From Ignavibacteriota bacterium (GTDB lineage Bacteria; Bacteroidota; Ignavibacteria; Tepidaquicellales; Tepidaquicellaceae), in NCBI GenBank assembly GCA_020437585.1, contig JAGQWG010000001.1, forward strand, positions 216,577-280,576: a stretch of DNA of 64,000 nucleotides. Direction: 5' to 3'. The notes beneath the pieces were generated by a model that was given only the letters and a program-made list of their open reading frames with translations, made no database searches and had not been told where the DNA came from. A program made the position numbers and the translations under genes. Below are positions 1 through 43,339 of the stretch, piece by piece (the stretch's first letter is position 1; every line of letters begins with the position of its first letter).

Positions 1-577
1 CAATCTCGCCTGATTCTAAATAATTAGTATTAAAAGTCATCGCATCACGGAGTTCATCAATTGCAAAAAATTCGTCTTCGATGTTTGCATCAATAACAAG
101 AACCCTTCCACTTTTAGGAACCTTATTTGTATCCAATGTTTTCTTTATCGCAAGAATATCTTCCCAGGCAAGTGAAGCACCTGCAAAATCGCTTGCGTTT
201 GTAGTTGTTTGAGCTTGCGAAACAACTAGGTTATCAAATTTTTCTTGTAATACTAATGAGGCTGAATTAAGATACTCCCGGATTAATGAACCGGCAGATT
301 CGAATTGAGCAAGAAGTTCATCTGCCAAAGGAACAGCATACCCCACTAACGGAACATTAATAAGACTTGTATCAGCTTTCACTTTCTTTCTGTCGCTATC
401 AACTAACGGTGTCCCGGCAGTCTTAACTATCGGGATAGCGAGATCAGGTACATCAACAGAACTTGCTCCGGGTCTTACCATCGAATCGAATGCTCTATTG
501 GCAAGTTGAAAGATTCCCTGAGACTCAATAAGACGTGTTATTACACTGTCCGCTACAATTGTTTTTGAAAATGCCAT
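1..577 (-). CDS. Phage major capsid protein, N-terminal 192 aa (partial, continues left of window)
   Basis: Reading frame is open from the ATG at 577-575 to position 1. It is absent from the ORF track because there is no stop in the window. My translation: MAFSKTIVADSVITRLIESQGIFQLANRAFDSMVRPGASSVDVPDL...KVPKSGRVLVIDANIEDEFFAIDELRDAMTFN. It lies directly downstream of the scaffold gene, as in the P2 O-N order. The capsid call rests on position and general resemblance only. Confidence 0.55.
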   Translation of the reverse strand, partial: MAFSKTIVADSVITRLIESQGIFQLANRAFDSMVRPGASSVDVPDLAIPIVKTAGTPLVDSDRKKVKADTSLINVPLVGYAVPLADELLAQFESAGSLIREYLNSASLVLQEKFDNLVVSQAQTTTNASDFAGASLAWEDILAIKKTLDTNKVPKSGRVLVIDANIEDEFFAIDELRDAMTFNTNYLESGEI

Positions 578-608
578 AATTTAAATTTTAAAGTTTAGAT
601 TAACAAAA

Positions 609-1571
609 TTAAAAATTGCCAAAATCATTGGATTCTTCTCTTAGTTTTATCAACTCCTCTTCTGTAAGAATCTTTGAATACTTCCCCGGATTGTTTAGTA
701 CATCACTATATGTCAAAGGACTACCGTCGGACTTAGTAAATTTTTGATTATCGTGTCCGGTAAATCCTGTTGACTCTATGCTTCTTGTAAAAAGAGCTTT
801 CGGAGGAAGCTTGTCAATAAATTTCATACATGCGTCTAGATTTTCTTCTGCAAATTCCCTAATCTCACCCTCCTGGGCAGGGACTATTTTCGCTTGGGCA
901 ATCGCCGATTTAAGCAATATATCTGTTGCCTTAGTTTTGTAGATTTTTACTTCATTTTGCAATTGTGTATAAACAGAATGAAGTTTTTTGGCAAGCTTTT
1001 CTTCTGTTATTCCTTGATCTAGCTCAACTCCGACCCCCAATGCAAATTCCAAGATTTTTTCCATTTTATTGTTTTTATTTAAATTGTTACCTGATTTTAT
1101 TTCTTTTCGAGACATTGAATAAAGTATTTTCCCAGCTACCAATTCCGGATTATAATTTCTATCCCTCTCGGTAAATTCAAGTGCAGGAAGCCCTGCTACA
1201 GCAGGACGGTTTGTCAATGCAACAGCAACCAGATAGAGACAATCTTTAAATGGTTCATAATTAAGCTTACCAAGCTCAATCGAACACCGTCTGTACTTTT
1301 TTGAATTAACCAATTTAATTAGGTCATCATCTAAGTGTGAAAAAGATGCGTACAACTTATCTCCGATCACCATTAGAGCTTCGACCCAGCCGTAGGCTTT
1401 TGGTTCTTCCGAAGAAGATGAACTAGGATGGCCTATCCATATAGGCGCTTCATAAACTGCAGGATCATAACTTTGAGCGATTTGCTCCAGTTCCATTGCG
1501 GTTACCGTCCCCTGTGGATATTGTCCCGCAGTAAAAACATGAAAGAATTTTTTGTTGTGGTAGTTTAACAT
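609..1571 (-). CDS. Phage capsid scaffolding protein / prohead protease, P2 GPO family
   Basis: GTVTAMELEQIAQSYDPAVYEAPIWIGH aligns by eye with recalled P2 gpO GRVISAQDIQEMAETFDPRVYGCRINLEH. CLYLVAVALTNRPAVAGLPALEF aligns with KCYLVGLAVTDDPASLGTEYLEF. The C-terminal half is coiled and charged. Confidence 0.75.
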   Translation of the reverse strand: MLNYHNKKFFHVFTAGQYPQGTVTAMELEQIAQSYDPAVYEAPIWIGHPSSSSSEEPKAYGWVEALMVIGDKLYASFSHLDDDLIKLVNSKKYRRCSIELGKLNYEPFKDCLYLVAVALTNRPAVAGLPALEFTERDRNYNPELVAGKILYSMSRKEIKSGNNLNKNNKMEKILEFALGVGVELDQGITEEKLAKKLHSVYTQLQNEVKIYKTKATDILLKSAIAQAKIVPAQEGEIREFAEENLDACMKFIDKLPPKALFTRSIESTGFTGHDNQKFTKSDGSPLTYSDVLNNPGKYSKILTEEELIKLREESNDFGNF

Positions 1572-1577
1572 AGTGAT

Positions 1578-1637
1578 GCAATTTATAATATGAAAATCAT
1601 TTTTCCAAATACTAAAAGGTTAGATACGTATCTATAC
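1578..1637 (-). promoter_or_regulatory. Palindrome-box promoter copy 1, proximal promoter of the scaffold-capsid operon
   Basis: Palindrome TAGATACGTATCTA at 1621-1634. On the minus strand, TTTG at 1609-1606 starts 18 nt after the dyad centre, and TAAATTGC at 1585-1578 follows 20 nt later. The scaffold ATG is at 1571. Part of a 37-bp direct repeat (1601-1637). Confidence 0.55.
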
Positions 1638-1667
1638 TTTTTTTATCTTTTGATTAGAACAAGGCAA

Positions 1668-1727
1668 CCAATTTAATAAAAGAAAAATCAGTTTCCAAAT
1701 ACTAAAAGGTTAGATACGTATCTATAC
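1668..1727 (-). promoter_or_regulatory. Palindrome-box promoter copy 2, distal tandem promoter
   Basis: Palindrome at 1711-1724, minus-strand TTTG at 1699-1696 and TAAATTGG at 1675-1668. Spacings are the same 18 and 20 nt. The 36-bp repeat 1692-1727 is identical to 1602-1637, with a 90-bp period. Confidence 0.5.
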
Positions 1728-1808
1728 ATGATTTTCAAAAATTATTATTATAGCAGTACTAATTTTTAAACTGATCACTAATCCAAGAAAGTAAATTGTG
1801 ATATGAAT

Positions 1809-1873
1809 AAAAAGTATAGATACGTATCTAACCCTTTTCTCTTTGCAATCGAAATTTTCATACTATATATTTG
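1809..1873 (+). promoter_or_regulatory. Palindrome-box promoter copy 3, promoter of the portal-terminase operon
   Basis: Palindrome at 1817-1830, TTTG at 1842-1845 (18 nt after the dyad centre), and TATATTTG at 1866-1873 after a 20-nt spacer. TATATTTG fits the Bacteroidota TAnnTTTG -7 consensus. The first gene's ATG is at 1905. Confidence 0.6.
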
Positions 1874-1904
1874 TATCGGTTTTTAAATCAAATCATACTA
1901 CCGC

Positions 1905-2291
1905 ATGCAAAAAGAAATTAGAGATAAACTTATCTCCCTGCTTGACGAAAGCCTCCCATCTATTACAGGTAAAGTTACTCGCTACCGAGGAGAGTTTGAA
2001 AAAGACTCCCGATGGAATCCGGAATTTCCTGCCTGCTTTGTTTTTCTTAAAGGATTCAACAAAGACATTGAGGGTACATACGGAGAAACACTTAAAAAAG
2101 GTTACTCCTTTCTTATTTATATTGCTGATCGAGATGATTGCGCTTCTCTGGCTGAAGAAATCTACAACACTCTGGATGGACTACAGATCGACATAGATGG
2201 AGATTTTTATAAATTGAACATTCGTTTAGTAAAACTTCTTGGATTTTTATATAGTGTTGATGTCTATACTATTGAATTAACAATAACCTAA
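1905..2291 (+). CDS. Phage protein, Mu gp37-like (DUF1834-like) head/tail joining candidate
   Basis: 128 aa. The pattern GKVTRYRGEF...FPACFVFLKG...FLIYIA...LDG resembles recalled DUF1834 proteins. First gene of the plus-strand phage operon. Confidence 0.45.
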   Translation: MQKEIRDKLISLLDESLPSITGKVTRYRGEFEKDSRWNPEFPACFVFLKGFNKDIEGTYGETLKKGYSFLIYIADRDDCASLAEEIYNTLDGLQIDIDGDFYKLNIRLVKLLGFLYSVDVYTIELTIT

Positions 2292-2317
2292 TTTTATTAA
2301 CCTATAACTACCATAAA

Positions 2318-3754
2318 ATGGAATTAATTAATAAACTTAAGCGGTCCATTTCAGATTCCTTAATAAAATTCGCTGCTGATAAAAAACCTTTATCAATGAA
2401 TCCTGCCATGGATAGTAAAGTTGTACGTCATGGAGGATTTAGAAATGTATTTAGTTTGTACACGGAAGAATTCTCTGGGCTAACGGCATATAATATAAAA
2501 CATTATTTTGAGGCAGCAAGGAAGGGCTTAAATTTTTTTAAAGCTGCACTCTTTGAAGATATTAAAAGAAAGGATATGCAGATCGGAGGTGTCTGTCAAT
2601 CTAGAAAGCTTGGAATAACAGGCAGATATAAACTGAACAGGATCGAAAACTTTGTTCATTGCAATGATGAAGGTATGAAAGCCTTTGTTTTAGAAAATTT
2701 TTCCAAAATAAATTTACCTGCATTCTTTTCTGATGTTGTAGATGCAAGTGTAACAGGAGTAAGTAATTTCGAGATAATATATAGGACAAATGGGAATAGT
2801 ATAACAATTGATAAAATACAGAAAATCCCAAATGAATTGATTGTATATGATGAAGGGGGCGACAGATATCTTTACCTTTCCCCTGAGGAAAGGGACATAT
2901 TTAAATTAAGAAGCTTGACTGCCTCAGCTTATAGTGGCTTCGATGATCGACTTGATATCAGTAAACTATCTCTTATTGAACTACCTGAAGAAAAAGTTCT
3001 TGAAGTTCATGCGCTAGATGGAAATGCGGGTAATGGATTAATGAACGGATGTATAGATGCTCTCATATGGGCTTTCTTTTTCAAAAGTTACCTTATAAAA
3101 GATCTGGCAACATTCCTGGAGCTTTTCGCTATCCCCGCGATTATTGGGAAGTACGACCCCTTAATGAGCCGGGAGGACAGGGTTAAGTTCGACACAGCAA
3201 TCCGTGATTTTGGCAATCATTTTAGGATGGTAATGAGTAAAGATGCGGAAGTAGAATTTGTAACTGATACAAATAAAGGAAGTTCCAATGAAATATATCA
3301 CCGCACTCTTGAATACTGGGATAAAAAAATAGCCATCCGGATCCTGGGGCAAAACCTCTCAACTGAAGTTGACTCTGGAAGTTACGCAGCAGCGCAGGCA
3401 CATAGTATTATTAGAAATGATTTCCTTATCTCTGATATGATTCTATGTGAATCAGCAATGAATACCCTGATAAAAAAGGTAATAGACTTGAACTTTAGCA
3501 ACCCTAAAGTTTACCCGAAGTTCGAATTTCCTGAAACTAAATCCTTGGAAGACAAAAAGATGCTAAGCGATATATACAGTTCCCTCAGCAGTTCAGGCTA
3601 TCACCTGGACAAAGAAGAAGTATCTAAAGAACTTGGCATAACAACAACTCCTCAATCTGAGATAATTAGTAAATTAAGAGACCTTACTAAGGATCACTCG
3701 AGAAACGGAGAAATGGAGAAATTCTTGACTGATACTCTTGAAGAAACTATCTAA
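2318..3754 (+). CDS. Phage portal protein candidate (Mu gp29 / DUF935-like)
   Basis: 478 aa, a portal-typical size. It sits between head-completion-type genes and upstream of the terminase. Family assignment is from recall and not verified. Confidence 0.55.
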   Translation: MELINKLKRSISDSLIKFAADKKPLSMNPAMDSKVVRHGGFRNVFSLYTEEFSGLTAYNIKHYFEAARKGLNFFKAALFEDIKRKDMQIGGVCQSRKLGITGRYKLNRIENFVHCNDEGMKAFVLENFSKINLPAFFSDVVDASVTGVSNFEIIYRTNGNSITIDKIQKIPNELIVYDEGGDRYLYLSPEERDIFKLRSLTASAYSGFDDRLDISKLSLIELPEEKVLEVHALDGNAGNGLMNGCIDALIWAFFFKSYLIKDLATFLELFAIPAIIGKYDPLMSREDRVKFDTAIRDFGNHFRMVMSKDAEVEFVTDTNKGSSNEIYHRTLEYWDKKIAIRILGQNLSTEVDSGSYAAAQAHSIIRNDFLISDMILCESAMNTLIKKVIDLNFSNPKVYPKFEFPETKSLEDKKMLSDIYSSLSSSGYHLDKEEVSKELGITTTPQSEIISKLRDLTKDHSRNGEMEKFLTDTLEETI

Positions 3755-3778
3755 TTGACAATCTAAACCGATAAACAA

Positions 3779-4198
3779 ATGGCATACTCTACACAAGAAG
3801 ACATACTAAAACGTATTAGAAAGCGCGAGCTTGACAAACTGATTGAAAGTCTGGACGGCGAACCTGATTCCGCCGACATCCTGACTGAGGCGATCTCGAC
3901 CGCCGATAGTATAATCGATGGATATCTAAAAAGCGTCGTAAAGGCACTCCCTCTGACGGAGGTTCCCGAGGCAGTCATTGACTGTTCAGCAAACATTGCA
4001 ATCTACATTCTTCACTCTCGCATACAATATCACGATGTACCTGAATTTTGGAAGGAAAGATACGATAACTGCATCTCATATCTGAAGGATGTTTCAAAAG
4101 GTCTGGCCAATATAGAGACAACTATAAACGAGGATGACCAGCAGGATAGCTTAAAAGCCTACTCAAATGAGAATGTTTTTAATAGGAATCTGTACTGA
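3779..4198 (+). CDS. Phage head-tail connector-like protein (Mu gp36 / DUF1320-like)
   Basis: 139 aa. YSTQEDILKRI...AISTADSIIDGYL...LPL...IAIYILHSR...ERYDNCISYLKDVSKG matches the recalled DUF1320 pattern. Its stop overlaps the terminase ATG (TGATG at 4196-4200). Confidence 0.6.
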   Translation: MAYSTQEDILKRIRKRELDKLIESLDGEPDSADILTEAISTADSIIDGYLKSVVKALPLTEVPEAVIDCSANIAIYILHSRIQYHDVPEFWKERYDNCISYLKDVSKGLANIETTINEDDQQDSLKAYSNENVFNRNLY

Positions 4199-5535
4199 TG
4201 GAAATAACAAGTCTTAATGATCTTCTTCCAAATTATAAATCTCTGCCTGCTTTAGAAAAGTGGCACATGTCAGATCACCTTGAAAAAGGGATAAAAGGTG
4301 GAGTTAGAAGCGGGAAGACATATGCACTAATGGCTGAGGCGTTATACCTTGCATACTGTAACCGCCCGTTTTTTCATTTATCTCTCTCTCCATCATTTGA
4401 TAATGCATGTGATACTGTTGTCGTTGTTTTGGAAGAACTCTGTGTTCGAAATAAATTGGAATACAGATGGATAAAATCAAACCGAACATTTCAATTCTGG
4501 CTTGAGAATGATAAAGATAACCACGCAAATATCCTCATTTACGGCTCGGAAATGTCGTTTAAAGGCATTACTGCCGCGTCCGGCGATATAAACGAACCCT
4601 TCTCAATTCCAAAAAAGAATATCCTGATTTGGTGGGAAAGAATATCACATCCGGAAGCCGCACGGCTCGTTCGCCTCTGGGGAGGAACCGCCGAACCCGA
4701 CAAGATGCAGTGGGGATGGGAGTATTGGGAAAAGGAGGAAATCAAAAATGATGATTCTTATATAACCACCATCACCACATATGACAATATCCATCTGAGT
4801 GATGACTACAAAAGACGGCTGGAGGATAAATACGATAGTCGTATGCGTGAGGTTTATATGATGGGTAAGAACATAAACCTATCAGCTGACCGCGCTTACT
4901 ACGCTTTTGATACTGAAAGATCTGTTGTGAAACAAAGCCAGGTGCAAACAACCAAAATTATCATCGGCTTCGATTTCAATGTGGATCCTATGTGCGCAAT
5001 AGAGTTAATCATAGACGAAGATGTTCGAACTCAGGTCGATGAGTATGTAATTCATTCCTCAAATACAGGTGAACTCTGTGAGTACATTATTATGCGACTT
5101 TTACAAAAATACAATCGGGAAGATATTACATTGATCATCACAGGTGATGCGTCAGGCAGGGCTTTGAAGACCGCTAGCTTCGGTAGAACGGATTATATGA
5201 TCATAAAAGAAGCATTCGAGAGAGCAGGATTTAGCTTAGATTTATATATCCCGAACAGTAATCCTCCCGTCCGAGATAGGATAAACTTTACTAATAAACT
5301 CTTTGAAACGGGTAAATATCTGATAACAGAAAATTGTAAGCAGTCAATCAAAGACCGGGGTCTCGTAACATGGAAACAGGGAACCGACGGCTTCATTATA
5401 GATAAATCGCGTCGGGACATATCACATTTATCGGATGCAGGAGATTACGCACTTTGGGCTAGCAAAAAAGTTGAAAATAGTGAACAGGATTACTTTACAA
5501 TTCAGCAAATGGGAAAAGCAAGGGAGTACCTCTAA
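4198..5535 (+). CDS. Phage terminase large subunit
   Basis: 445 aa. N-terminal Walker A GGVRSGKT. C-terminal nuclease-like half with acidic motifs (IIIGFDFNVDP, LIITGDASG). Translationally coupled to the upstream phage gene. Confidence 0.8.
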   Translation: MEITSLNDLLPNYKSLPALEKWHMSDHLEKGIKGGVRSGKTYALMAEALYLAYCNRPFFHLSLSPSFDNACDTVVVVLEELCVRNKLEYRWIKSNRTFQFWLENDKDNHANILIYGSEMSFKGITAASGDINEPFSIPKKNILIWWERISHPEAARLVRLWGGTAEPDKMQWGWEYWEKEEIKNDDSYITTITTYDNIHLSDDYKRRLEDKYDSRMREVYMMGKNINLSADRAYYAFDTERSVVKQSQVQTTKIIIGFDFNVDPMCAIELIIDEDVRTQVDEYVIHSSNTGELCEYIIMRLLQKYNREDITLIITGDASGRALKTASFGRTDYMIIKEAFERAGFSLDLYIPNSNPPVRDRINFTNKLFETGKYLITENCKQSIKDRGLVTWKQGTDGFIIDKSRRDISHLSDAGDYALWASKKVENSEQDYFTIQQMGKAREYL

Positions 5536-42767: not shown

Positions 42768-42840
42768 AGGAGGAAATTTACTAAAAAAGTAATGGAATTT
42801 TAAGGCTTAAATATAGCATTCGGATTGCTATCATAATGAT

Positions 42841-43257
42841 GGAGCCGGATAAGCGGTTCTTCCGGCTGAGCCTCTGACTTTCGCTTCATTCCTTTCCCCG
42901 GGTGAGGATCGGGAGGTGAGGGAAGCTACACGCCCAAGCCCGCCTACATTTAACTTATTTACTCTTCCATAAGCGGTTTCCCGCCGGTGGGTTGATTTAA
43001 AGGACGGTAAGATTCCTCACTTTCTGTACCAATTTACGCATGTTCCAAGTATGGGTTGATTTAAAGTTCGGCGGCAACACTTTTAGTTGTTGGTGACGGT
43101 TCACTTTGTTCACCTAAAACACCAACAACGGCGTTACGGTGTGTTGTCCCATTTTACACATGTTCTAATCCCGTCAAGGACGGAACGCGGATTGTACTTT
43201 CTAAGAAGAAAGCATACCGCTTGTAGGTTGATTAGGTCGGGACGAATCCCGCCTTAA
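42841..43257 (-). ncRNA. Candidate structured ncRNA of unknown family, or a ~490-nt structured 5' leader of mtaB
   Basis: 570-bp gap with no ORF of 60 aa or more on any frame, and visibly more GC-rich than its flanks. Perfect 10-bp stem GTTGTTGGTG (43086-43095) with CACCAACAAC (43120-43129). 7-bp stem AGCCGGA/TCCGGCT (42843-42867). 5' UUCG hairpin. Repeated modules GGGTTGATTTAAAG x2 (plus one degenerate copy) and TTTACRCATGTTC x2. The strand is chosen because a conserved promoter points into it. Confidence 0.5.
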
Positions 43258-43262
43258 ATAAG

Positions 43263-43327
43263 GAAATATAGGGTGAGAAAAGAATGAAAGCAAAGAGAAA
43301 AGGGTTAGATACGTATATATACTTTTT
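43263..43327 (-). promoter_or_regulatory. Palindrome-box promoter copy 4 (orphan), pointing into the structured region
   Basis: Minus strand reads AAAAAGTATATATACGTATCTAACCCTTTTCTCTTTGC, matching 1809-1846 at 37 of 38 positions. TTTG (43294-43291) lies 18 nt after the dyad centre. TATATTTC (43270-43263) follows a 20-nt spacer. Confidence 0.6.
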
Positions 43328-43339
43328 TTTCTACTAACT

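What the first reader, a model, noticed from the sequence alone, without database searches (positions are those of the whole stretch)
1578..1873. Three palindrome-box promoters in the divergent control region of the phage head/packaging operons (late-promoter-like architecture)
The 333-bp intergenic region holds three copies of the perfect 14-bp palindrome TAGATACGTATCTA, at 1621-34, 1711-24 and 1817-30.

Two copies lie inside a 36/37-bp direct repeat with a 90-bp period. They face the scaffold-capsid operon as tandem promoters. The third faces the portal-terminase operon.

In every copy a TTTG starts exactly 18 nt after the dyad centre, and a TAWATT box follows after 20 nt. This places the dyad centre near -50. 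That recalls what is known of P2-type late promoters, where Ogr-family activators act at a dyad centred near -55. By analogy, a dedicated dimeric activator may gate capsid and packaging gene expression.

The proximal leftward promoter would give an almost leaderless scaffold mRNA, since its -7-like box ends 6 nt before the ATG.
Basis: partly seen in the sequence, partly recalled or inferred. Interest (0 to 1): 0.65.

Follow-up and report, generated by a model that had tools for sequence, protein, structure and literature searches.

The report
Host-wide palindrome promoter cassette on phage island
The three palindromes are real and each sits at a fixed distance upstream of a normal host-type promoter, but the same cassette also precedes ordinary chromosomal genes. 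The head and packaging genes therefore seem wired into a host regulon, on an old phage-derived island that has no regulatory genes of its own.

Summary
TAGATACGTATCTA occurs exactly at 1621-34, 1711-24 and 1817-30 (no shuffle reaches this). Each copy is followed by ACC, a T-run, TTTG, 20 nt and TAWATTKN. That is the Bacteroidota/Chlorobi-type sigma-A -33/-7 promoter, with the dyad at about -54.5.

The cassettes are conserved footprints in orthologous control regions of four lineages. Two strains differ at 11 of 333 control-region positions, none inside a cassette (p=3e-4).

The cassette is not phage-specific:
- A fourth copy at 43306-19 faces a non-phage region.
- A related Ignavibacteriae MAG carries it upstream of ddl, gcvH-rpmF-plsX, efp-accBC and a thiolase operon.
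- Metagenome contig depth suggests about 20 copies per genome.
- In that lineage, island and host sites share the same symmetric variant, TATATACGTATATA.

The "prophage" is an island of about 18 kb holding only head, lysis, tail and packaging genes. It has no integrase, repressor or replication gene. It lies between rpsT and NUDIX/ruvB and has been inherited vertically with synonymous sites saturated, which makes it look like a gene transfer agent (GTA).

Most likely the palindrome is the operator of a clade-specific dimeric host factor acting from a fixed upstream position, probably as an activator. The factor is unidentified. A 62-aa NrdR-type zinc-ribbon protein near the island is only a weak candidate.

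The parts
1621..1634 (.). Palindrome c1, TAGATACGTATCTA. It is the upstream element of the proximal leftward promoter.
   Evidence: Exact match. No strain difference falls inside the cassette.
1578..1620 (-). Core of the proximal scaffold promoter, read on the minus strand. It comprises ACC plus a T-run at 1620-1610, -33 TTTG at 1609-1606, a 20-nt spacer, and the -7 box TAAATTGC at 1585-1578. The predicted start is about 1573, which leaves a 2-nt leader (effectively leaderless).
   Evidence: The -7 box position of -12..-5 is taken from PMC9723704.
1711..1724 (.). Palindrome c2, the upstream element of the distal leftward promoter. It is a tandem copy 90 nt upstream of c1.
   Evidence: The tandem copy is found only in the window's species.
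1668..1710 (-). Core of the distal scaffold promoter, read on the minus strand. It has -33 TTTG at 1699-1696 and the -7 box TAAATTGG at 1675-1668. The predicted start is about 1663, giving a leader of about 92 nt.
1817..1830 (.). Palindrome c3, the upstream element of the rightward promoter.
   Evidence: It is conserved in lineages A, B and C (alignment A1).
1831..1873 (+). Core of the rightward promoter. It has ACCCTTTTCTC, -33 TTTG at 1842-1845, a 20-nt spacer and the -7 box TATATTTG at 1866-1873, a perfect match to TTTG-N20-TAnnTTTG. The predicted start is about 1878, giving a 27-nt leader to the ATG at 1905.
1..577 (-). 5' part of the major capsid gene. The full gene encodes 268 aa and continues left of the window.
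   Evidence: phrog_267 major head protein, 1e-13.
609..1571 (-). Scaffold / head-maturation protease (GPO-type). It is the first gene of the leftward operon of about 12 kb, which runs capsid, lysis-like genes, tail, tape measure and distal tail.
1905..2291 (+). 128-aa first gene of the rightward operon, with weak similarity to Mu gp37.
2318..3754 (+). Mu-type portal protein.
   Evidence: Portal_Mu, 2e-60.
3779..4198 (+). Mu gp36-like head-tail adaptor.
4198..5535 (+). Large terminase subunit. It is the last gene of the island; host NUDIX and RuvB genes follow.
   Evidence: There is no att-like repeat at the island ends.
43263..43319 (-). Fourth cassette, c4, outside the island. The palindrome TAGATACGTATATA lies at 43306-19, -33 TTTG at 43294-43291 and the -7 box TATATTTC at 43270-43263. 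It faces a 570-nt ORF-free stretch and a MiaB/RimO-like gene.
   Evidence: It is 82% identical to c3 over 68 nt.

Best explanation
Each 14-bp palindrome is the operator of a dimeric DNA-binding protein that belongs to the host, or at least is not specific to the island. It is locked 11 bp upstream of the -33 element of a Bacteroidota/Chlorobi-type sigma-A promoter, with the dyad at about -54.5. From there the protein most likely touches RNA polymerase (alpha-CTD or sigma region 4) and sets promoter output, as a class-I-type activator would.

In the window, two tandem cassettes drive the scaffold-capsid-lysis-tail operon and one drives the 128aa-portal-adaptor-TerL operon. Both operons belong to an island of about 18 kb that is phage-derived, vertically inherited, holds only structural genes and has no regulator of its own. 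About 20 cassettes per genome precede unrelated chromosomal operons, so the island is a member of a clade-specific host regulon.

Shown:
- the cassette anatomy and its fixed geometry;
- its conservation and avoidance of substitutions;
- its presence at host operons;
- the concerted symmetric change of the palindrome between lineages;
- the island's gene content and vertical history.

Inferred:
- that a protein dimer binds the palindrome;
- that it activates rather than represses;
- the transcription start sites;
- the identity of the factor, which remains unknown.
For: (1) Sixteen cassettes from lineages A, B, C and E align without gaps as GGKA-TA[G/T]ATACGTAT[C/A]TA-ACC-T-rich(8)-TTTG-N20-TAWATTKN. 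One cassette (L004, scaffold side) has a 12-nt rather than 11-nt spacing. Information content is concentrated in the palindrome, ACC, TTTG and the -7 box, and the spacers vary.

(2) The -7 box was not part of any search pattern. It is still present at the exact offset in 7 of 7 independent non-island sites (background 1.9%, chance about 8e-13). The one hit from outside the clade (L009, Flavobacteriaceae) lacks it.

(3) The promoter type fits the taxon. The sigma-A -7 box TAnnTTTG lies at -12..-5 in Flavobacterium (PMC9723704). Chlorobaculum RpoD promoters are Bacteroidetes-like (bioRxiv 10.1101/172254).

(4) Phylogenetic footprint: in otherwise unalignable intergenic DNA, only the cassette is invariant across lineages (alignments A1 and A2). 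Within the species, 0 of 11 differences fall in the 171 cassette nucleotides (Fisher p=3e-4).

(5) Host sites exist. They comprise c4 in the window and, in MAG CALGOI01, sites upstream of ddl, gcvH-yceD-rpmF-plsX, efp-accB-accC, a 202-aa gene plus thiolase, and a 193-aa gene plus AHSA1/DinB-like genes, alongside the island's portal operon. Other contigs of 4.5-22 kb at the same depth also carry the cassette. Summed depth over the palindrome is 19-24 times the unique flank.

(6) Positions 3 and 12 change together (G/C to T/A), which keeps the symmetry. They do so in island and host sites of the same lineage, as expected if one trans factor is shared.

(7) The island has no regulatory, integration or replication gene.
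Against: - No transcript or binding data exist; no RNA run holds the locus.
- The core promoters are near consensus (c3 is a perfect TTTG-N20-TAnnTTTG). They may therefore not need an activator, and an island that carries lysis-like genes must be kept silent somehow, which would favour a repressor.
- No candidate factor was tied to the motif, and none of the mapped sites precedes an obvious regulator gene.
- The strict search pattern required ACC-N8-TTTG, so the constancy of the palindrome-to-TTTG spacing in the scanned host sites is partly imposed by the search.
- Host sites have long leaders (190-540 nt) that remain unexplained.
Confidence: 0.55

Rival explanations
1. Repressor operator. The palindrome binds a dimeric repressor that keeps these strong promoters, including the potentially lethal island operons, shut until a signal arrives. 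Cooperative binding or looping between the three operators could contribute in the island.
For: The core promoters are near consensus and should fire unaided. The leftward operon carries holin-like and cell-wall-hydrolase-like genes, so it must be silenced. c2 and c3 are 106 bp apart, about 10 helical turns.
Against: The operator lies wholly upstream of the -33 element. The 11-bp offset is kept in the island cassettes, in c4 and in L004, none of which was found by the search pattern, and a repressor would not need such a fixed offset. The palindrome-to-palindrome spacing is not conserved: 351 bp in L004 and about 2.1 kb in L003. Host sites have a single operator.
Confidence: 0.2
2. Dedicated island or phage activator on the P2 Ogr model. 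A small zinc-binding protein encoded next to the island, the 62-aa NrdR-type zinc ribbon, binds the dyad at about -55 and switches on the head and packaging operons. Under this reading the host sites are secondary targets.
For: The dyad is at about -54.5. A 62-aa stand-alone NrdR-type zinc ribbon (Pfam 41 bits against a cut-off of 27; phrog_10675 1.5e-8) lies at the left edge of the island in lineage A. It is kept intact next to the remnants in lineages B and D, and a homolog sits beside TerL in the distant relative L005. NrdR itself reads AT-rich palindromes through this domain (my own knowledge).
Against: In lineages C and E, and ancestrally in B, a host Na/H-antiporter gene separates the zinc-ribbon gene from the island. 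In lineage C, which has the most mapped host sites, the gene stops after 37 aa. Ogr_Delta scores only E=0.58. The dyad is not TGT-N12-ACA. The cassette precedes housekeeping operons at about 20 copies per genome. L005 has a zinc-ribbon gene but no such palindrome, only a half-site.
Confidence: 0.1
3. The cassette has no dedicated factor. It would be a self-contained strong-promoter unit whose upstream palindrome works like an UP element (read directly by RNA polymerase alpha-CTDs, or acting through DNA shape). It would have spread by duplication as a 'mobile promoter'.
For: The palindrome occupies -61..-48, where UP elements lie, and is flanked by an A-tract and a T-tract. c3 and c4 share 82% identity over 68 nt, including the spacer, and c1 and c2 are a recent tandem duplication.
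Against: A perfect 14-20-bp palindrome with a central CG, and a compensatory symmetric change between lineages, fit a dimeric protein better than alpha-CTD contacts. Spacers between unrelated sites are not homologous. Only about 1 host promoter in 58 kb of the window carries it, so it is not a general promoter feature.
Confidence: 0.1
4. The palindrome is not a transcription signal. It would instead be a packaging (pac/cos) site, an origin or partition site, a REP-like hairpin repeat or a bidirectional terminator.
For: It lies in the head/packaging control region close to parAB. The palindrome with its A/T arms can form a hairpin followed by T-runs at c1 and c4.
Against: The hairpins are weak, at -2 to -9 kcal/mol with AU stems, and the terminator scan does not pick them up. 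The fixed register with the -33/-7 boxes at unrelated loci is unexplained by any of these roles. Island depth equals host-flank depth, and no ends or joints are seen. The sequence does not resemble the canonical parS.
Confidence: 0.03

Closest known systems
Bacteroidota/Chlorobi-type sigma-A promoters (-33 TTTG / -7 TAnnTTTG)
   Same: The core of every cassette is TTTG-N20-TAWATTKN, and c3 and several relatives match the consensus perfectly. The host is an Ignavibacteria-like member of the same superphylum.
   Different: There is an additional, invariant 14-bp palindrome plus ACC exactly 11 bp upstream of the -33 element. As far as I could find, this is not part of the described consensus.
P2/186/P4 late promoters with Ogr/Delta/B zinc-finger activators
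   Same: A dyad is centred at about -55 of divergent head-gene promoters (portal-terminase one way, scaffold-capsid the other). A small zinc-binding protein is encoded nearby.
   Different: The dyad sequence differs. The core promoters are strong rather than lacking a -35 element. The motif is shared with about 20 chromosomal promoters. The nearby protein is an NrdR-type ribbon rather than an Ogr/Delta finger, and it is probably a host gene.
Fixed-position upstream activator sites of global regulators (for example CcpA cre at about -56 of B. subtilis ackA, or class I CRP sites)
   Same: A palindromic operator with a central CG sits at a fixed upstream position of otherwise ordinary housekeeping-type promoters and belongs to a multi-operon regulon.
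   Different: The regulator family is unknown here. The resemblance comes from my own knowledge of those systems and was not tested.
Gene transfer agents such as RcGTA, whose structural cluster is run by host regulators (CtrA, GafA)
   Same: It is a cluster holding only head, tail and terminase genes. It has no integrase, repressor or replication genes, sits at a fixed chromosomal locus, is inherited vertically under purifying selection, and has promoters that carry a host regulon signal.
   Different: The cluster has a different gene order with two divergent operons. Lysis-like genes lie inside it. It has decayed in two of five lineages. No particle or packaging data exist. No GTA is described for this phylum.

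Membership tests
Bacteroidota/Chlorobi-type sigma-A promoter | A -7 box TAnnTTTG (in Chlorobi, TA[ATC][ATC][AT]T). | tested here: met
   c3 TATATTTG, c1 TAAATTGC, c2 TAAATTGG and c4 TATATTTC. 15 of 16 aligned cassettes show TAnnTT at the fixed offset, and the sixteenth (L004, scaffold side) has TAAATTTG one nt further on. Consensus taken.
Bacteroidota/Chlorobi-type sigma-A promoter | A -33 TTTG placed 19-21 nt upstream of the -7 box. | tested here: met
   TTTG with a 20-nt spacer in all four window cassettes.
Bacteroidota/Chlorobi-type sigma-A promoter | Transcription starts about 5 nt downstream of the -7 box. | not testable with these tools
   No RNA run holds the locus.
P2-type late promoter / Ogr-Delta system | A TGT-N12-ACA dyad centred near -55. 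| tested here: not met
   The position matches (-54.5), but the sequence is TAGATACGTATCTA, a contiguous 7+7 palindrome. The P2 consensus is from my own knowledge.
P2-type late promoter / Ogr-Delta system | An Ogr/Delta-family zinc-finger activator encoded by the element. | tested here: not met
   No regulator lies inside the island. The neighbouring 62-aa protein is Zn_ribbon_NrdR (41 bits). Ogr_Delta scores E=0.58 for the L003 ortholog only, below its cut-off.
P2-type late promoter / Ogr-Delta system | The signal is confined to the element's late operons. | tested here: not met
   Host operons carry it, at about 20 copies per genome.
NrdR regulon | Tandem 16-bp NrdR boxes (acaCwAtATaTwGtgt) at nrd promoters, and an NrdR protein with an ATP-cone. 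| tested here: not met
   The motif differs (central ACGT, 14 bp). No nrd genes lie downstream. The 62-aa protein has no ATP-cone. The box consensus is from my own knowledge.
Gene transfer agent (domesticated phage cluster) | A structural and packaging gene cluster without integration, lysogeny or replication genes. | tested here: met
   The full inventory runs from the rpsT side to the NUDIX side. There is no att repeat.
Gene transfer agent (domesticated phage cluster) | The same locus in diverged genomes, co-divergence with the host, and purifying selection. | tested here: met
   The same rpsT...NUDIX-RuvB site is occupied in five lineages. Island proteins are as diverged as the flanking host proteins. 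Synonymous sites are saturated (pS above 0.75), yet the ORFs are intact in lineages A and E and in the sampled parts of C. However, lineages B and D hold decayed remnants.
Gene transfer agent (domesticated phage cluster) | Particles that package random host DNA and transfer it. | not testable with these tools
   The only relevant data are that island depth equals flank depth and that there are no excision joints.
REP/MITE-like dispersed palindromic repeat | A stable hairpin, intergenic dispersal, and no fixed relation to promoter boxes. | tested here: not met
   The hairpins are weak. The register with the -33/-7 boxes is fixed. Only the cassette is shared between loci.

The most novel reading that the evidence does not exclude
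The island is a gene-transfer-agent-like, domesticated phage of an Ignavibacteria lineage. Its two divergent structural operons have been placed under a clade-specific global regulator, whose 14-bp operator sits at -54.5 of about 20 promoters, including translation, lipid and cell-wall operons. Particle production would then be tied to a host physiological signal. This would be the first GTA-type element, and the first defined global regulon signal, in this phylum.
Probability: 0.3. Interest if true: 0.8.

Novelty: new variant of a known kind. Interest (0 to 1): 0.6.

Why it matters
Almost nothing is known about transcription control in Ignavibacteria, which are common in activated sludge. This work gives three testable things.

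- A sharply defined cis-element with fixed geometry, about 20 genomic copies and lineage-specific symmetric variants. It is an ideal bait for finding the cognate factor.
- A clear example of phage structural operons running on the host's own promoter grammar rather than on a phage late-gene switch.
- A candidate GTA-like island outside the phyla where such elements are known. The island has natural 'knock-out' lineages (B and D) for comparison.

Tried and rejected
- Rfam on the whole window, on the c4 region and on six related loci gave no family at gathering score. The only hit was a chance-level sroD match (E=0.78).
- tRNA/tmRNA scans found nothing.
- IMG/VR scans with the portal protein and with the cassette pattern returned nothing.
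- No RNA-seq runs hold the locus.
- The exact consensus TTTG-N19-21-TAnnTTTG is only weakly enriched in the window (4 matches against 1.25 expected). It is therefore not a useful genome-wide promoter finder on its own.
- Homology between the long leaders downstream of different host cassettes was tested. Similarity stops at the -7 box, so the cassettes do not mark a repeated RNA gene or a MITE.
- The terminator/hairpin reading was rejected because the structures are weak.
- The word-based search for zinc-ribbon homologs found only one close relative. The exhaustive search found many stand-alone ribbons of 45-90 aa but gives no genomic context.
- An upstream ATACTTAT element 25 nt before the palindrome is present in only four cassettes (L003 portal side, L014, L010 and L012). 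I did not count it as part of the module.
- An att-type direct repeat at the island ends was not found.
- Literature searches for the motif, and for GTAs in Ignavibacteria or Bacteroidetes, found nothing relevant.

Full report
**1. The observation**

The 333-bp region between the scaffold gene (609-1571, minus strand) and the 128-aa gene (1905-2291, plus strand) holds three exact copies of TAGATACGTATCTA, at 1621-34, 1711-24 and 1817-30. With up to 2 mismatches the window has 4 matches against 0.36 expected, and no shuffle out of 100 reaches 4.

The repeat is longer than the palindrome:
- 1579-1644 and 1669-1734 are 82% identical direct copies, 90 nt apart.
- 1580-1642 is 81% complementary to 1809-1871.

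Read towards the gene it faces, each copy is palindrome, ACC plus a T-rich 8-mer, TTTG, 20 nt, then TAWATTKN.

**2. These are promoters of the host's own type**

TTTG-N19-21-TAnnTTTG is the sigma-A consensus of Bacteroidota. In Flavobacterium psychrophilum the -7 box occupies -12..-5 (PMC9723704). In Chlorobaculum, a relative of Ignavibacteria, the RpoD motif is of the same kind, with a -7 box TA[ATC][ATC][AT]T (bioRxiv 10.1101/172254).

Cassette c3 is a perfect match (TTTG 1842-45, TATATTTG 1866-73). Applying the -12..-5 rule gives these predicted starts:
- c3: about 1878, with a 27-nt leader.
- c2: about 1663, with a 92-nt leader.
- c1: about 1573, with a 2-nt leader, which is effectively leaderless.

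The dyad centre then falls at about -54.5. The organism is an Ignavibacteria-like bacterium from activated sludge.

**3. Comparative evidence that the cassettes are functional**

The same island occurs in other lineages. I call the window's species A, and L023/L024 belong to it. The others are B (L003, L015), C (L004, L012, L026 and MAG CALGOI01), D (L025) and E (L028).

In A, B, C and E the control regions are unalignable except for the cassette. The palindrome, AACC, the T-run, TTTG and TAAATTTGTA are the invariant columns (alignments A1 and A2; table). Lineages B, C and E have one leftward cassette, so the tandem pair c1/c2 is specific to A.

Two strains of A differ at 11 of 333 control-region positions. 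None of these lies in the 171 nt of the three cassettes (Fisher p=3e-4).

**4. The cassette is not phage-specific**

The octamer ATACGTAT occurs only four times in the 64-kb window. The fourth copy (43306-19, TAGATACGTATATA) is a complete cassette on the minus strand (TTTG 43294-91, TATATTTC 43270-63). It is 82% identical to c3 over 68 nt. It faces a 570-nt ORF-free stretch and a MiaB/RimO-like gene, 41 kb from the island.

I scanned species-representative genomes for TAKATACGTATMTAACC-N8-TTTG. The scan gave 7 hits, 6 of them in one Ignavibacteriae MAG. In that MAG the cassette precedes:
- ddl;
- gcvH-yceD-rpmF-plsX;
- efp-accB-accC;
- a 202-aa gene plus a thiolase;
- a 193-aa gene plus AHSA1/DinB-like genes;
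- the island's own portal operon.

The metagenome scan returned the same organism and two more sites from lineage B.

The -7 box was not in the search pattern. It is nevertheless present at the exact offset in 7 of 7 independent non-island sites, against a 1.9% background (chance about 8e-13). The single hit from outside the clade lacks it.

In the window's own metagenomes, several other contigs of 4.5-22 kb at the same depth carry the cassette. Summed contig depth over the palindrome is 19-24 times that of the unique flanks. This points to roughly 20 copies per genome. Several of the loose ends again show TTTG or TA.. at the right offsets.

Lineage C uses TATATACGTATATA at both island and host sites. 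Lineages A, B and E use TAGATACGTATCTA. This paired, symmetry-preserving change is what a shared dimeric factor would produce.

**5. What the 'prophage' is**

Walking left of the window shows the whole element, in this order:

rpsT | 62-aa zinc ribbon (-) | 214 | 479 | 164 | 566 | tape measure 835 | 52 | 146 | 173 | 72 | 82 (holin-like) | 125 | 217 (phrog_3000) | 61 | capsid 268 | scaffold 320 | control region | 128 | portal | adaptor | TerL | NUDIX, RuvB.

It spans about 18 kb. It has no integrase, repressor or replication gene and no att repeat.

It occupies the same chromosomal site in all five lineages. Its proteins are as diverged from their orthologs as the flanking host proteins are. 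Synonymous sites are saturated (pS above 0.75) in island and host genes alike, yet the ORFs are intact in A and E and in the sampled parts of C. I read this as long vertical descent under purifying selection.

Two lineages hold remnants:
- B has lost everything from capsid to tail. There the scaffold N-terminus is fused to the TrkA_N end of an antiporter gene, and at least five frameshifts are confined to island genes.
- D keeps only TerL and the distal tail genes.

Depth over the island equals that of its flanks, and no excision joints are seen. Known phages share only Mu-like portals at 27% identity or less. The best description is a domesticated, GTA-like or PBSX-like element, or a very slowly decaying one.

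**6. Who binds the palindrome?**

This is unknown. It is a 62-aa stand-alone NrdR-type zinc ribbon (Pfam 41 bits against a cut-off of 27; phrog_10675). It is conserved next to rpsT in A, B, D and E, and a homolog lies beside TerL in the distant relative L005.

Three points count against it:
- In C and E a host Na/H-antiporter gene lies between it and the island.
- In C, the lineage with the most mapped host sites, it is cut to 37 aa.
- L005 has the protein but only a half-site.

I keep it as a weak candidate. None of the mapped sites precedes an obvious regulator gene.

**7. Mechanism**

The invariant 11-bp offset from the -33 element holds in the island cassettes, in c4 and in L004. None of these was selected by the search pattern. 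That offset argues for a factor that works in contact with RNA polymerase from about -54.5, in the manner of a class-I activator. It argues against a repressor, a hairpin, a terminator (weak folds) or a packaging site.

The main counter-argument is that the core promoters are near consensus and that the island must normally be silent. I therefore give a repressor 0.2. I give an UP-like element with no factor 0.1, and the dedicated Ogr-like activator 0.1.

**8. Verdict**

The 'dedicated late activator' reading is not supported. The element belongs to a host-wide, clade-specific promoter cassette. The surrounding island is probably more interesting than the finding as originally framed.

Noticed in passing
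window 42768-43339: This is a 570-nt ORF-free, internally repetitive stretch (GGTTGATTTAAAG twice, plus a paired 'ttacRcatgttc' motif). It lies downstream of cassette c4 and upstream of a MiaB/RimO-like gene. There is no Rfam family. The minus strand folds somewhat better than shuffles (z=-2.6). It could be a long leader or an undescribed RNA.
   Followed up: partly
window 1-5535 plus L001 10001-20963 and L022 1-3790: The 'prophage' is an island of about 18 kb holding only structural, lysis-like and packaging genes, between rpsT and NUDIX/RuvB. It has no integrase, repressor, replication genes or att repeat. It sits at the same locus in five lineages with saturated synonymous divergence, which makes it a GTA-like candidate.
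   Followed up: partly
L003 5880-13420; L025 6150-11010: There are two independent decay states of the island. In L003 everything from capsid to tail is deleted, the scaffold N-terminus is fused to TrkA_N, and at least 5 frameshifts occur only in island genes, yet both cassettes remain perfect. L025 keeps only TerL and the distal tail genes.
   Followed up: partly
L001 19721-20963 (479-aa gene); L023 10001-11329: The distal tail protein is only 71% identical between strains whose capsid and scaffold are 98-99% identical. The tape measure also differs in length (835 against 797 aa). This suggests a hypervariable receptor-binding module.
   Followed up: no
L022 3787-3975 (-); L003 5879-6085; L025 11301-11101; L028 13259-13059; L005 11518-11360: A stand-alone NrdR-type zinc-ribbon protein of 62-69 aa, without an ATP-cone, is conserved divergently from rpsT. 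It is cut to 37 aa in L026. An exhaustive search shows many similar proteins of 45-90 aa in public data.
   Followed up: partly
window 1557-1564 (-), 1897-1904 (+); L001 12017-12024: ACTACCRC lies immediately before or just after the start codons of the scaffold, 128-aa and 217-aa genes. In L001 there are 5 matches against 0.45 expected. It may be a translation-initiation context in an organism without Shine-Dalgarno sequences.
   Followed up: no
L012 5650-6870 (between gp36 and TerL): Lineage C has three small extra genes (69, 138 and 149 aa) inserted between the adaptor and the terminase genes. They are absent from the window.
   Followed up: no
L002 position 1; L028 position 1: Public short-read contigs end exactly inside the palindrome. 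This is an assembly break caused by the multi-copy cassette.
   Followed up: yes
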